64,000 nt of DNA from Bdellovibrionota bacterium (GTDB lineage Bacteria; Bdellovibrionota_C; UBA2361; JBGSMV01): contig JBIKWF010000008.1 in NCBI GenBank assembly GCA_044356455.1, positions 1 to 64,000 on the forward strand, in the 5' to 3' direction. The position numbers are program-made. Positions 9,001 to 15,000 of this stretch are shown one piece after another. The stretch's first letter is position 1; each line of letters starts with the position of its first letter.

Positions 9001-12000
9001 GCCTATATCTTTGCGGTTGATCCACCAGGTGAAATTGAGAAGCAGCTTTTGGAATACGCGTGCTAAAAATACACGGTCTCGTTTACCTTTAGGCGCCGTA
9101 ATTTTATAGACACGCCAGCATGCCCAGGCGTGCACTGGGGGGTTTACGTCACTAAAGGCGAACTCGTAGGCAGGAAGTTTTCCTGTAGGATGCATGTACC
9201 ACTCTCTGAGAAAGAGAATGAGTTGTTCCTTCGCAAACTCAGGATCGATTTTTGAGAAAGGAACCATGTGGAATGCTAAATCCCAGGCTGCGTACCAGGG
9301 GTACTCCCACTTGTCAGGCATCGATATGACGTCGCGGTTATAAAGGTGCGACCAATCGGTATTTCGCGTGTTTTTTCGGTTGGGGTGCGGGGCAGGTTGG
9401 GCGGGATCTCCCTCCTGCCATTCGCGGACTGCGTAGTAGTAGAACTGCTTTGACCAAAGAAGTCCGGCATAGGCTTGCCTAGAAACTTGGCGCTCCTCGT
9501 TCGATGCTCCGGAAGGCAGCTTGTCCTCGTAAAAGGTGTCGGTCTCAGCGATGCGGGCTTCAAGGGTGCGGTCGAAAGATTCCCCAAATATTTCCTGGGG
9601 GGCGTCGCGATCATTAAAAAGACGAAATTTAAGTTCGAGTGAAGCTCCCGAAGGGATTTCTTGGCAGGAGTAAAAACTCGCCTTCGTTCCTTTATGATCC
9701 GAATTTACGGCGCCCTTCTGATCATGAATCACATAGTCGTGGAACGAGTCCTTCACGAAAGGACGCTCCATCGGACTTCCAAAAAGCCGGCTAATATTAG
9801 TTTCATTCTCGGTGAAAAGAGGGACCGGATGGTAGAGCTTCGATTCAGGCTCGCAGTGGAACGTGAAAGGTTCCAAACTCTCGTGCTGTGTCCGAAAGGA
9901 GGAAGCGCCAGAAAGCGAAATAAGCGGCTTTTTTTCAGCGTAGCCCTCTCCCGAGCGGCCCCAGGACCAATTGTTTCTGAACCAGAGAGTGGGAAGTACG
10001 TGCAAGCGCTGAATGGTTGGGCTGTGATTAACTATTCGGAGACGTATAAGAATATCGTTCGGTGCGCCCTTGGCATACTCAACAAAGATGTCGAAATAGC
10101 GCTGGGAGTCAAAGACGCCTGTGTCGCTTAGTTCAAATTCCGGCTCGTCGCGAGAGCGGCTCTTATTCTCAGTGGCAAGAAGACCATAGGGGAAGTCATC
10201 TACCGGATACTTATAGAGGCCCTTCATGTAGGAGTGCGTGGGAGAGCCATCAAGATAGTAGTAGCACTCTTTTACGTCTTCTCCGTGGTTACCCTCACTG
10301 CCGGTGACTCCAAAGAGTCGCTCTTTTAGAATCGGATCGTGGCCGTTCCAAAAGGCAAAAGAGAAGCAAAGCCTACACTCGCGGTCCGTAAGTCCAAGTA
10401 AGCCATCTTCCCCCCAGCGGTAGGCACGGCTCCGCGCATGGTCGTGGGGAAAATAATCCCAGCAGCTACCGTCAGGAGAGTAATCTTCGCGTACGGTTCC
10501 CCACTGGCGCTCTGAAAGGTAGGTTCCCCAGCGCTTCCAATTCTTTTGGCGCACGGCATCTTCTTGCAGACGTTGTGACTCAGGGTCTAACTTCATGTGT
10601 GTGCTAAGATTGCCGCATCCTGCGTGAAAGCGGCAGCAGTAAAAATAGAAAGGCGCTGGCGGTGATTTTTACACCCCCAGCGCCGATACTTTATGGCGCA
10701 GGTTCTTGAAACCGCGCCAGTACTGCGCAGTTACTTTTGCGCAGAAGTAACTGCGCAGAAGTCTCTGTTAGCGTAGCAGAGTGAGGCGTTCTTGGAATTC
10801 TTCGGGGCTTCTTTCGTAGCCACGCAGAGTTTCTTGAAGCGCGATTGGCTCAAGGTCAAGGTGAAGAGCAACCCAGGCAAAGCTAAAGGGCTTCTTGGGA
10901 GTGAGCTTGCCAAAAAGCCATTGGCGAGCGCTTCGTACTACGTGACGTTCACAGTGGGCGGTTCCAAAGGCGTCGCATATCGCCCGAGATAGGACGGCAG
11001 CGAGCAAGTTCCTTTCAGCTTTTACCGGGGAATAGGCTTCAACATCCTCTTCTCTCTCAGGTGAGAACCGGCTAAGTGCTGATGAGTTACTCATGATTGG
11101 CCTCTCAAAAAGGAACTAACAATAAAAGATCATTCGTTGCGGGAACCTAGCGAAACTACCCCGCCATTTCTTGCCTTTCTCTGGCTCCAAGAGCCCATTC
11201 CTAGAGCCAATGGAGAACATTCTTCTCTCGTCATACCGGGCTCGCTCTACCCCCTATGCAGGGACAGCAATCGCTCGCGTTGTAATGGTGAGATGAGAAT
11301 GTAAGGTCAAGAACAAGAGACAACCTCTTGATATAATTAAACAATAGCAGGTTTGTTTAACGTAACTAAAGCTTTTACTCGGTTAAACCAAACGCGTCAA
11401 GTCTTTATTTTATTTAGCTTTTTTTTGTTGTGAGTGAGATGGTGTTTTATGTCATGTTGCGTGACGCGATCTGCCAGTGACGCTTTTAGTGACTCTGGTT
11501 TGACTTTGAACTTGAACTCCCCTAGTTTCGCTCCTCGCACCGTTAGCTTCATGTTCCCGATAACGGGAGGATTAAGAGGCCTTTAAATCTGTGCTGAGGT
11601 CGGTAGGTGCCGATCTCTTCTCGAGGCATTTACTCGGCAGATTTGGGTGCGAAATGGTGTTTAACGATTTGAATCCCCTTGGTTTAACGAGCGTATGGCG
11701 AAGAAGCTTTTTGTTAGCAATCTTGATTTCGAAGTAGACCAGAACACCCTGCGTGGATTGTTCGCCGAACTCGGTTCCGTAATCAGCGCGGTTATCGCTA
11801 CGGATCGTGAAACCAAGCGCTCGAAAGGGTTTGCCTTTGTCGAGATGGAGCGCGAAGAAGACGCTCTTAAAGCCATCGAGACTCTTAACAATCGTGCCCT
11901 GAACGGTCGTCCTATGAAAGTCGTTGAGGATCGCGGCAAGGGCGGTGGCGCAGGTGGGGATGATGACGGCCCTCGTCAGCGTGAGTTCCTTCCTCCAATT

Positions 12001-15000
12001 CAGCGCATGCAGCTTTTCAAGCGCAAGAAGAAGCTTGATCCATTCATGGAAGACCCGACCAAGAGTGTCGATTACAAGGACGTAGTAGTTCTTTCTCGCT
12101 TCCTTAGCGAGCGCGGCAAGCTTCTTTCTCGTCGTCTTACGGGTCTTAGTGCCTATAACCAGCGCAAGGTTGGTAAGGCGGTCAAGCGTGCGCAGAATCT
12201 TGGGCTGATGGCTTTCACTAGCGTGAAGTCCTAACTCGGTAGAGAGCTAGTCCTCCCGAGGATAGCGAAAGGCGTAGTGACTCATGTGAGTCGCTACGCC
12301 TTTTGTTTTATGTAGCCGTAAATCTCAAAGACAAACGAGACAGCTCCTAAGCCGCGCCTTCGCACGCGGCTACTTTTTCGTCTCCCAGGCCTTGTCCCCA
12401 GGTATGTGAAAGACCTTTTGATTGGCCTTATTTACAGAATCGAGCTCAACGGCTTTGCATAGCTGCTCAAGCACATGCTTAATGCGTTTGCCGCTTGATT
12501 CAACAAGCTCCGCTGCTTCTTTTTGCTCCGGTGTGGACCCTTGAGCCGTAGAGAGCAAATAGGCAGCTCCTAGTACGGCACCCAAGGGATTATTGATTTC
12601 GTGCCGCAAGGTTCCGACGAGAGTCTTCACGGTGTCTATCACCGCTTGATTCAATTTCGCCTGCTCTAGTTCTTTCGAAAGCCGATTCCTATCAATGATG
12701 CCGAGAATCAGAGGCTTGAAGAGGGGCTCGCTGACGCTGCGTTTGCTTAGAAAAAAAGTTGCCCCCGCCTGAACGGTGGCTCCCGGAATTTCTGGAGCAT
12801 TGTCTGAGCTTACGGATAAAATCGCTTTGTCCCTGAACCAGCCTTCGGCAAGAAGTTCCGAGCCACGTCCGTCCGGAAGATGTTGGTCTATCACTATAAG
12901 ATCAAAATCTTGACTCTCTGGAGTTCGAAGATTCGCTCGTACCTCCGTGAGGCTTGCAAAGTGGGTAACGGAAGCGTCAGGCATAATTGCCTTGAGGCGC
13001 ATCTCGACGATCTTCTTAAAGGAAAGGTCGTCATCAATAATGAGAATGCGATGTGTCATGGCGCGCCTGCTGGAGTAGACCCTTCTATAATCCTAATATC
13101 GGTAGATTTCTGGCAATCCTGAAGCATTACCAAACAGGTGAAATTCTTTTTAAGGGTAAGGCCTAGCACTCTGCAGCCCATCGAAGAAACGGCAGGATGT
13201 GAACCGTAACTTCCTCGTACACTAAGTCGCGGGCAGGATCGCTCGCGGTAATTAATATGAGGTCTTTAATTCCGAGCTCTTTTCCTATGAGTGCTAGGCC
13301 TCTCAGTTCTCTGCGAAGAGTCGACTCGTCCGCTACAGAGAGGCTCACTTGAACCGCTATCGGATCTTGTCCAGCCTTGCGTCCGATAAAATCGACCTCA
13401 GCGGCCTCCGAGTCGGCCCTCCAGTAATGTAGTTCGAATCCGCGCCTGCGAAGTTCAAGGTATACGGAGTTCTCAAGAAAAGCTCCTTCGTCTCCAAGCA
13501 CTGAGAAGGCGCTGTAGCGGGCCATAGCCGGATCCACGCAGTAGAACTTCGGATTGCTGCGGATCTGCTTTCGTATCGCAGGGGAAAAAGCCTTGATTTC
13601 ATGAAAAAGATACGACTCCTCTAGCCAGCGAGAATATCTCTTAATTGTTTCGTTATCTTTCACCCCTAGTGCTTTCGCGACACGAGAGCGATTCATAAGG
13701 TGTGTGTTATCGCTGCACATTATCTGTGCCAACTCCTTTAACTGGCGCTTGAGGCGTGACCCGTGCCTTACAATTACGTCACGCTCAACGATATCTCGAA
13801 AATATTGTGGTAGTACTGAGGCGTCATTGTCGATGTACGATCGCGGAAACCCGCCATAGCGGTAATATTTTCTGTAGCTAGAGAGCAATTGGTCTTCCGT
13901 GAGAGCGGTCGCGGCCTGGAGCGGAAATTCAAACTGTAGGATTTCGTGAAAACTTAATGGGGTCATTTCGTGCGAACTATGACGGCCGGTCAGTAGGGTA
14001 GCTATCTCGGAACTCAGGAGCTGAGCGTTTGATCCGGTAGCGACGATCTTAACCGATCTATCCTTCGCAATCTGAGTAAGCCATTTTTCCCAACCGCTTG
14101 TATTCTGAATCTCGTCAAGCAGCAGCAGCATTCTGGGCGATGTGGATCTCGACAGCTCAGCGCAGATTTCAATCAGGGACAAGAAGTCCGCTCCCCCAAA
14201 ACCCTCAAGGGCCGGATTGTCAAATTCCACTAGCAGTGTGCGGTAGTTGCTTTGATGCTGCCGATAGAGCTGCGATAGAAACGATGACTTTCCGCAGCGG
14301 CGAACGCCTGTGATGATCGAGATTTCGGGTTTTTCAATCTCCGCAGATAGATCCAGCTCCCGCTCTGCGATTGGGCGCAGCACCTTCTGCTGAGCGAATA
14401 TTCGTTGCTGCTCAAGGATCTGTACGAGTTGCGCTTTGTCCATCCGCCATGAGCATACTATAATTATGTGATTTATTAAACGGTAAATATTATGTATTTA
14501 CCATTTAGCAAGTGGTATATATAACGTTTTGATATCAATCGCGAAATATCCCTGCAGACGAGGAGAATTGCCTGTGAGCAATTCGCTTGTCATGTTCCGG
14601 ATTGGGTCCACCGCACTGAAAAACTGATTCAGTCTGTGAACGATCCACAATCTCAAGACGAGAGAGCCTAAGACGTTCTTCGGCCTTGTGCGCCCCGATT
14701 ACCGGCGAGGGCGCCTCTGAAAAACAGCGTGTTCGCGGCGCTCGCAGGCGCGCGATGTTGGAAATCTCACGGACCCGAAGGGATCCCATGAGATATAGCG
14801 GCTCGATATACTTTTAAGCCGCGGAAAGTTCCTGGCGCTCTACGAGTGAGCGATAGAGGCCCGGGACTCGGCTCAGCTCCTCATGACGCCCTCTCTGGAC
14901 GATCACTCCACGGTCAAGCACCAAAATCTGGTCGGAATGTTGCACGGTTGCCAAGCGATGAGCCACGACGAGCATGGTCTTTCCTTTAACTCGTGTTGCC

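What a model noticed while it worked through the whole genome (the two positions that open the first line are those of the whole stretch)
11695..12234. The only ribosomal protein bS18 gene is fused to an N-terminal RRM domain and has left the S6-S18-L9 operon
g00768 (179 aa) joins a eukaryote-type RNA recognition motif (RRM_1, residues 5-74) through a Gly/Asp-rich linker to a complete bS18 (123-172). It is the only S18 sequence in the assembly and stands alone on C38, while rpsF (g01912) and rplI (g01911) on C108 are neighbours with no S18 between them. The fusion is conserved across the class, so ribosomes of this phylum probably carry an extra RRM on the small-subunit platform.
Evidence so far: Pfam: RRM_1 5-74 (E 2.5e-22) and Ribosomal_S18 123-172; NCBIfam equivalog TIGR00165. 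tblastn of the S18 part against the whole assembly finds only C38 11995-12231; the RRM part finds C38 and the free RRM protein g03169 on C161. 520 protein clusters at E<=1e-10; the 120 listed all have PF00076+PF01084, 68-97% identity, 176-239 aa, named at most '30S ribosomal protein S18' (Oligoflexia / Deltaproteobacteria MAGs). In 5 of 5 sampled genomes of five other families of the class (G010, G061, G095, G109, G120) the match runs from residue 2-3 to 173-179 in one open frame of 195-220 aa. Searches 'bS18'+'RNA recognition motif'+'fusion', 'ribosomal protein S18'+'RRM'+'Bdellovibrio' and 'ribosomal prote [...]
(Added by a program. Inside this text positions count along the whole contig: contig position 1 is position 1 of the stretch shown here. 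"Call 12" and the like, gene names such as g00115 and contig names such as C1 are that model's own, and its searches are not shown. The text may have been shortened before it was handed on; [...] marks where a part breaks off. The agent that wrote the report below was given it as the finding of a first reader that could run no searches.)

Follow-up and report, generated by a model that had tools for sequence, protein, structure and literature searches.

The report
Ribosomal protein bS18 carrying an RRM
In this uncultured bacterium and nearly all its relatives, the only gene found for small-subunit ribosomal protein bS18 has an RNA-binding RRM domain joined to its front by a floppy tether, so their ribosomes probably carry a built-in extra RNA-gripping module next to where the messenger RNA is loaded.

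Summary
Confirmed. Window 11695-12234 (+) encodes one 179-aa protein: an RRM, a flexible linker and a complete zinc-free bS18. It is the genome's only bS18 match. Across the lineage, 116 of 124 genomes have exactly one bS18 match, and 113 of those 116 are RRM fusions. The rest are one contig end, one frameshift and one RRM loss. rpsF abuts rplI in 29 of 30 loci. The RRM keeps its RNA-binding aromatics and groups apart from free bacterial Rbp paralogues, so it is best read as a captured bacterial Rbp, not a eukaryotic import. Anti-SD, SD use, bS1 and bS21 are all present, so it adds to the initiation machinery and replaces nothing obvious. Best reading (0.5): a ribosome-tethered single-stranded-mRNA grip beside bS1. 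Presence on ribosomes and function are inferred, not shown. Five literature searches found no description; this scan noted the same fusion earlier in seven other windows. New variant of a known kind.

The parts
11695..12234 (+). Fused gene RRM-linker-bS18, 179 aa; the only rpsR match in the genome
11707..11916 (+). RRM domain (residues 5-74) with intact RNP2 (F6) and RNP1 (K44, F46, F48)
11941..11982 (+). Flexible linker (residues 83-96); pLDDT below 50 at 83-93; 8-47 aa in relatives
11983..12036 (+). Conserved N-terminal arm of bS18 (residues 97-114): a lineage-specific motif followed by the basic run
12037..12231 (+). bS18 core (residues 115-179), zinc-free type (no Cys)
11500..11528 (+). 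Sigma-70-like promoter candidate (TTGACT, 17 nt, TAGTTT) followed by a G+C-rich stretch
   Evidence: pattern in 43 of 66 upstream regions against a mean of 1.9 (max 6) in 200 shuffles; the pattern was drawn after looking, and the strict scan did not list it
11535..11694 (+). Predicted 5' leader, folds better than shuffles but not visibly conserved; weak SD
   Evidence: z -2.64; -2.7 kcal/mol; no relevant Rfam match
12264..12307 (+). 20-bp hairpin with U-rich 3' end between convergent genes; terminator candidate
   Evidence: z -8.8, 0 of 200 shuffles as stable; not listed by the scan
10768..11094 (-). Conserved neighbour: 108-aa protein of no known family, next to the fusion in 58 of 66 loci

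Best explanation
An ancestor of this lineage joined a copy of its free single-RRM RNA-binding protein (Rbp) gene to the front of rpsR, and the fused gene replaced the operon copy and became its own transcription unit (shown as a pattern; the order of events is inferred). The bS18 part pairs with bS6 and binds 16S rRNA on the 30S platform as usual (inferred from full motif conservation). The N-terminus of bS18 lies where mRNA runs between the SD:anti-SD duplex and bS1, so the RRM hangs on a short disordered leash in the mRNA delivery and exit cavity (inferred from published E. coli and chloroplast structures). There its intact beta-sheet aromatics grip single-stranded mRNA, helping capture and hold open initiation regions alongside bS1, or chaperoning mRNA as it leaves. 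In effect the Rbp chaperone becomes a one-per-ribosome component. It is an accessory, not a substitute for SD pairing, bS1 or bS21.
For: Sole bS18 match in 116 of 124 genomes, fused in 113 of 116. RNP residues in 240 listed homologues: F6 239 F + 1 Y, F46 240, F48 240, K/R44 240. The model shows a standard RRM fold (rmsd 0.7-1.1 A to most top Foldseek matches) and a low-confidence linker, pTM 0.42. Linker length varies 8-47 aa, which fits a mobile domain more than a rigid dock. Fused RRMs fall on one side of a 99/89 branch against 19 free RRMs; 53 of 61 genomes have two or more RRM matches. PMC10983998 passages: mRNA likely contacts basic N-terminal bS18 residues between the SD and bS1-OB2. 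10.64898/2026.07.03.736309 passages: the chloroplast bS18c N-terminal extension projects into the platform cavity. A free cyanobacterial RRM protein co-purifies with ribosomes and mRNA (PMC12232666 abstract and section 11). Bacteroides RbpB binds single-stranded regions (PMC11697453 passages).
Against: Nothing here shows the protein on ribosomes, uncut, or bound to any RNA. One genome (G009, 92% complete) has bS18 without the RRM in the same neighbourhood, so the domain may be dispensable. No gap in the initiation machinery explains a need for it: the anti-SD is canonical, SD motifs are in 37% of 2760 predicted ATG starts against 11% of 3043 internal controls, bS21 is in 118 of 124 genomes and bS1 is present in two pieces at contig ends. 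The homologues counted were the best hits to fused queries, which favours conservation. Synechocystis Rbp3 prefers folded segments near stop codons, not 5' ends.
Confidence: 0.5

Rival explanations
1. The RRM is ribosome-bound but its partner is 16S rRNA (the single-stranded 3' tail or a platform loop). It acts as a structural protein like chloroplast cS22, shields the anti-SD, or helps late 30S assembly.
For: cS22 RRMs bind 16S h6 and h10 (preprint passages) and cS22 is among the best solved-structure matches. In Bacteroidetes bS18, bS21 and bS6 hold the 16S 3' tail (PMC7797042 passages).
Against: The 16S gene covers the whole 1533-position model in 1517 nt, so there is no large insertion to bind. 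SD use is clear, so the anti-SD is not permanently hidden. Loss of free Rbps did not impair ribosome assembly in Bacteroides (PMC13370968 passages). The variable linker argues against one fixed site.
Confidence: 0.22
2. The RRM works off the ribosome. Either the fusion is cut in the linker, in the manner of ubiquitin-ribosomal protein fusions (recalled), or free full-length protein acts as a regulator, for example of its own or the rpsF-rplI mRNA now that the operon is split.
For: The linker is disordered and exposed. The gene has its own promoter and terminator candidates and a foldable leader. Free Rbps are global regulators.
Against: No conserved cleavage motif in the linker (conservation 0.27 against 0.66 for the RRM and 0.77 for the bS18 core). 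No Prp protease found in this 93% complete genome. Leaders are not visibly conserved, and there is no Rfam leader around rpsF or here. Most genomes already have free Rbps.
Confidence: 0.13
3. The RRM is a near-neutral passenger: rpsR was captured behind an rbp gene's strong promoter and start, and the RRM serves mainly as an expression or solubility tag.
For: G009 lacks the RRM, with a GTG start and an AGGA upstream, and its bS18 nests among the fused ones (moderate support).
Against: The surface aromatics are almost invariant in 240 homologues, and the domain is kept in 113 of 115 scorable genomes across many families, including reduced genomes of 1.2-1.9 Mb.
Confidence: 0.1
4. The gene makes an ordinary short bS18 from an internal start codon, and the ribosome uses that form.
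For: 51 of 66 fusions have an ATG between the RRM and the bS18 core, and some database entries begin there.
Against: 13 of 66 have no ATG, GTG or TTG in that stretch, and only 1 of 66 has an SD-like motif before one. P0397 equals the C-terminal 82 aa of the fusion in L013, and P0399 shares its cluster and longest-contig length with a 183-aa member, so these look like truncated gene calls.
Confidence: 0.05

Closest known systems
Canonical bacterial bS18 (rpsR; PF01084, TIGR00165)
   Same: Complete core over the curated cut-off, single copy, basic N-terminal run; zinc-free type.
   Different: Carries a folded 75-aa RRM on a linker, about doubling its size; encoded alone, not between rpsF and rplI.
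Bacterial single-RRM Rbp proteins (Bacteroides RbpA-C, Synechocystis Rbp1-3, NF058537)
   Same: Same fold and RNP1/RNP2 residues; NF058537 89.3 bits; 47% identity to PDB 7jly. Rbp3 associates with ribosomes.
   Different: Those are free proteins, often with Gly/Arg tails; here the tail position is taken by bS18. The score is below the family cut-off of 100.
Chloroplast cS22 (PSRP2)
   Same: RRM domains as part of a bacterial-type small subunit; among the top solved-structure matches.
   Different: A separate two-RRM protein at the 30S foot on h6 and h10, not fused to a core protein and far from the platform.
Chloroplast bS18c N-terminal extension; OB domain on algal uS2c
   Same: Additions to platform proteins; the bS18c extension is proposed to contact mRNA (preprint passages).
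   Different: The bS18c extension is short basic-aromatic repeats, not a folded domain; both are organellar.
bS1
   Same: Tethered single-stranded-RNA-binding domains over the mRNA exit: the functional analogy.
   Different: OB folds, unrelated to the RRM; bS1 itself is present here.

Membership tests
bS18 (TIGR00165, PF01084) | Scores over the curated cut-off across the whole model | tested here: met
   70.6 bits against 38.75, positions 1-68 of 70; PF01084 77.4 against 21
bS18 (TIGR00165, PF01084) | Is the genome's housekeeping copy | tested here: met
   1 match in this genome; exactly one match in 116 of 124 genomes, none with two
bS18 (TIGR00165, PF01084) | Pairs with bS6 and sits on the 30S platform | not tested
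   No complex model was obtained; inferred from core conservation and bS6 in 118 of 124 genomes
bS18, usual gene context | Lies in the rpsF-(ssb)-rpsR-rplI operon (usual, not required) | tested here: not met
   rpsF directly before rplI in 29 of 30 loci, gaps about 2-168 nt, no bS18 hit in any of the 30; about 244 nt here
Zinc-binding (C+) bS18 | Cys ligands in the N-terminal part and core | tested here: not met
   No Cys in the bS18 part of 239 of 241 sequences
RRM domain (PF00076) | Four-strand, two-helix fold with RNP1 and RNP2 aromatics | tested here: met
RRM domain (PF00076) | Binds single-stranded RNA | not testable with these tools
   Inferred from conserved surface residues only
Bacterial Rbp regulator (NF058537) | Score at or above the curated cut-off of 100 bits | tested here: not met
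   89.3 bits: related, not filed as a member
Bacteroidia-type anti-SD sequestration system | Genome-wide lack of SD sequences | tested here: not met
   SD motifs peak about 8-11 nt before predicted starts, 37% against 11%; 42% against 18% at -4.5 kcal/mol
Prp-processed ribosomal protein extension | Prp protease gene in the genome | tested here: inconclusive
   0 matches in a 93% complete genome; found in 3 of 14 controls; relatives not searched

The most novel reading that the evidence does not exclude
A whole phylum-level lineage of free-living bacteria has built a sequence-selective RRM into every 30S subunit at the mRNA delivery site. There it acts as a hard-wired mRNA-selection factor beside bS1, possibly together with the disordered, partly RGG-rich extensions of bS21 and uS2 seen in this genome, giving an RRM-plus-RGG surface on a bacterial ribosome.
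Probability: 0.25. Interest if true: 0.82.

Novelty: new variant of a known kind. Interest (0 to 1): 0.62.

Why it matters
Core bacterial ribosomal proteins are thought rarely to gain whole folded domains (own knowledge). A lineage-wide RRM on bS18 would be a natural redesign of the place where mRNA is recruited, and a bacterial parallel to the RRM proteins that chloroplast ribosomes gained. It bears on what bacterial RRM proteins do at ribosomes, since free ones co-purify with them, and it offers a simple test by gene swap. It is also a clade marker that annotation hides: entries are named plain S18, and some are cut to the short form. The limits are that no cultured member is known to me and the function may be modest, as one genome lacks the domain.

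Tried and rejected
Assembly chimera: rejected by recurrence in 113 genomes. Second free bS18: none of 124 genomes has two matches. Replacement for SD pairing, bS1 or bS21: all present. Conserved internal start: not supported. Prp cleavage: no Prp found. Conserved leader RNA: none by Rfam or by eye in 40 of 66 upstream regions printed; no covariance model was built. Viral copy: 79 loci kept from 183 hits hold free RRMs, none with bS18. The HMM search of 1.84 billion representatives was swamped by multi-RRM proteins; only 2 of the 150 listed are fusions, so it says nothing on range outside the lineage. Cluster look-ups gave few taxon names. A metagenome scan for relatives of the RRM-less G009 form gave 14 loci: 2 fused, 12 free bS18 (10 of them near bS6), no second RRM-less member of the lineage. 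No RNA holder was listed. No bS6-fusion complex model was obtained, so that pairing is untested. Hfq was not found and one cold-shock domain was; neither was followed up. Literature searches listed no paper describing the fusion (listings and abstract starts only; the library lacks most subscription journals, and bioRxiv supplements were closed).
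Full report
Observation. Window 11695-12234 (+) is one open frame of 179 aa. Pfam places RRM_1 at residues 5-74 (E 7.5e-22) and Ribosomal_S18 at 123-172 (E 8.7e-22). The equivalog TIGR00165 scores 70.6 bits against a cut-off of 38.75 over 68 of 70 positions, and the bacterial RRM regulator model NF058537 scores 89.3 against 100. 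Six-frame searches of the 93% complete genome give one bS18 match and two RRM matches, this gene and a free 134-aa RRM protein with a Gly/Arg tail on C161. On C108 rpsF is followed after about 244 nt by rplI, with nothing like bS18 between them.

Distribution. The tool's phylum holds 124 genomes, all of one class. Record titles of related loci say Bdellovibrionota, Deltaproteobacteria or Proteobacteria MAG. That this is GTDB class UBA2361 is my recall; a passage of PMC13200544 says only that UBA2361 and Oligoflexia were moved out of Bdellovibrionota. PF01084 matches 116 of 124 genomes (72 of 73 near-complete), always once; 113 of the 116 lie in open frames of 170 aa or more. With the whole protein as query, 103 genomes give one match spanning both domains (my count), and the other ten were read directly as fusions. 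Four matches flagged with a stop were read and are intact. The three exceptions: G006 runs off a contig end; G076 has both domains in different frames after a short deletion; G009 has a bS18 that begins at the last residues of the RRM, with a GTG start and an AGGA before it, and no RRM in the gap to the usual neighbour. In a bS18 tree G009 falls among the fused sequences, away from 14 free bS18s, with moderate support, which fits secondary loss or an assembly deletion. Protein searches gave 598 hits at E<=0.001 and 1887 at E<=1e-20 with a profile of divergent members (this total may include free RRM proteins); all 240 listed have both Pfam domains. Around the 30 best of 118 bS6 matches, rplI follows rpsF within about 2-168 nt in 29, the other ends at a contig edge, and none has bS18. 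I could not sample sister phyla, so the outer boundary is untested. The nearest Atlas cluster is the fusion itself, and 12 of 14 metagenome loci from other bacteria have a free bS18.

Anatomy. AlphaFold2 on a 66-row alignment gives mean pLDDT 83.7, a standard RRM at residues 3-78, pLDDT under 50 at 83-93, a helical bS18 core and pTM 0.42, so no fixed packing of the two domains is predicted. Foldseek aligns the RRM to many solved RRMs, mostly at about 0.7-1.1 A, including the RNA-binding protein of PDB 7jly (47% identity) and chloroplast cS22. In the 240 listed homologues F6 is F in 239 and Y in 1, F46 and F48 are invariant and position 44 is always K or R; mean conservation is 0.66 for the RRM, 0.27 for the linker, 0.61 for the bS18 arm and 0.77 for the core; 239 of 241 have no Cys in the bS18 part. 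These rows were best hits to fused queries, so the figures lean high. The linker is 8-47 aa, median 18, rich in Gly, Ser, Arg and Glu. The gene looks monocistronic: a sigma-70-like element at 11500-11528 recurs in 43 of 66 upstream regions against 1.9 in shuffles (the pattern was drawn, and the strict scan missed it), and a 20-bp hairpin follows the stop.

Origin. In a tree of 34 fused and 19 free RRMs, the fused ones are one side of a 99/89 branch, next to free Rbp paralogues of the same genomes. The tree has few columns, its bootstrap had not settled, one row was cut short by my trimming, and no eukaryotic rows were included. It supports one origin and is consistent with capture of a bacterial Rbp, but does not formally exclude other donors. 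53 of 61 genomes have two or more RRM matches, so free Rbps were kept.

Is the RRM really on the ribosome? Some database entries from the lineage are 73-92 aa. P0397 equals the last 82 residues of the fusion in L013, and P0399 clusters with a 183-aa member with the same longest-contig length, so they look like truncated gene calls. Of 66 fusions, 51 have an ATG between the domains, 13 have no start codon there at all, and 1 has an SD-like motif before one. Prp, which trims bL27 in some bacteria (recalled), was not found. With one bS18 gene and no conserved way to remove the RRM, the simplest reading is that ribosomes carry it. This was not observed: no RNA run was listed and no complex model was obtained.

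What it does not replace. The 16S gene ends in the canonical anti-SD and shows no large insertion. With my own rough gene calls (3387 genes), SD-like 4-mers lie before 37% of 2760 ATG starts against 11% of 3043 internal ATGs, peaking about 8-11 nt upstream; by duplex energy the figures are 42% and 18% at -4.5 kcal/mol. bS21 is in 118 of 124 genomes and bS1 is present, broken only by contig ends. This is therefore unlike the Bacteroidetes case, where bS18, bS21 and bS6 hide the anti-SD (PMC7797042, passages).

Mechanism. Passages of PMC10983998 place basic N-terminal residues of E. coli bS18 against the mRNA between the SD duplex and bS1-OB2, with the mRNA passing a pore of bS1, bS6 and bS18. 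Passages of preprint 10.64898/2026.07.03.736309 show the chloroplast bS18c N-terminal extension projecting into the platform cavity and propose mRNA contacts; they also place the cS22 RRMs on 16S h6 and h10. Free bacterial RRM proteins bind single-stranded RNA widely (PMC11697453, passages), support cold growth without affecting ribosome assembly (PMC13370968, passages), and in Synechocystis co-purify with ribosomes and mRNA (PMC12232666, abstract and section 11). Together these make a tethered mRNA grip or chaperone beside bS1 the best reading (0.5). Rivals: binding to 16S rRNA (0.22), work off the ribosome or after cleavage (0.13), near-neutral passenger (0.10), internal start (0.05). Shown: the fusion, its single-copy status, its spread, the intact RNP surface, the split operon, normal SD use. 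Inferred: incorporation, position, RNA target, benefit.

Comparison and novelty. It passes the tested membership features for bS18 and for the RRM domain, and fails the cut-off for the Rbp regulator family. Additions to ribosomal proteins and RRM proteins on chloroplast ribosomes are known kinds; a folded RRM fused to a core protein across a bacterial lineage was not found in searches (listings only; most subscription journals are missing, and preprint supplements were closed). Earlier notes of this scan report the same fusion in seven other windows; they agree with what I tested and are not independent evidence. Verdict: real, new variant of a known kind, interest 0.62.

Noticed in passing
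window 10768-11094 (-): A 108-aa protein with no Pfam, NCBIfam or PHROG match lies next to the fusion in 58 of 66 loci (45 divergent, 13 on the same strand). Atlas look-alikes are unnamed clusters from phages, Pseudomonadota and Binatota.
   Followed up: partly
L192 (G000:C79:10800-11800): bS21 has a long N-terminal open extension with FGDRGG repeats. All 20 sampled bS21 of the same order have a disordered-looking N-terminal open extension (RGG in 5), while 10 from other orders start with Met at the core. The true starts were not fixed.
   Followed up: partly
L299:1324-2484 (G000:C78): uS2 is 386 aa with an RGG-rich C-terminal tail.
   Followed up: no
L074:1424-1744 (G009): bS18 without the RRM, starting at the RRM's last residues: a natural loss or an assembly deletion.
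   Followed up: partly
L073:851-1404 (G076): Fusion split by a frameshifting deletion near the end of the RRM; possibly an assembly error.
   Followed up: no
window about 11360-11400: An A+T-rich motif followed by GTCAA recurs upstream of the fusion in several relatives; probably the promoter or an operator of the divergent 108-aa gene.
   Followed up: no
window 12370-13059 (-): A receiver-domain plus HisKA protein is the convergent neighbour in a minority of related loci.
   Followed up: no
L124 (G027:C49): A second, divergent bS21 in G027 (6% contamination), possibly from another organism.
   Followed up: no
L220-L298: Many viral contigs carry free single-RRM genes 33-54% identical to this RRM over the best segment.
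   Followed up: no
window 13163-14443 (-) and 17874-19124 (+): An AAA_14 + DUF4143 ATPase gene near the locus, and a second ORF that looks similar by eye (not scanned).
   Followed up: no
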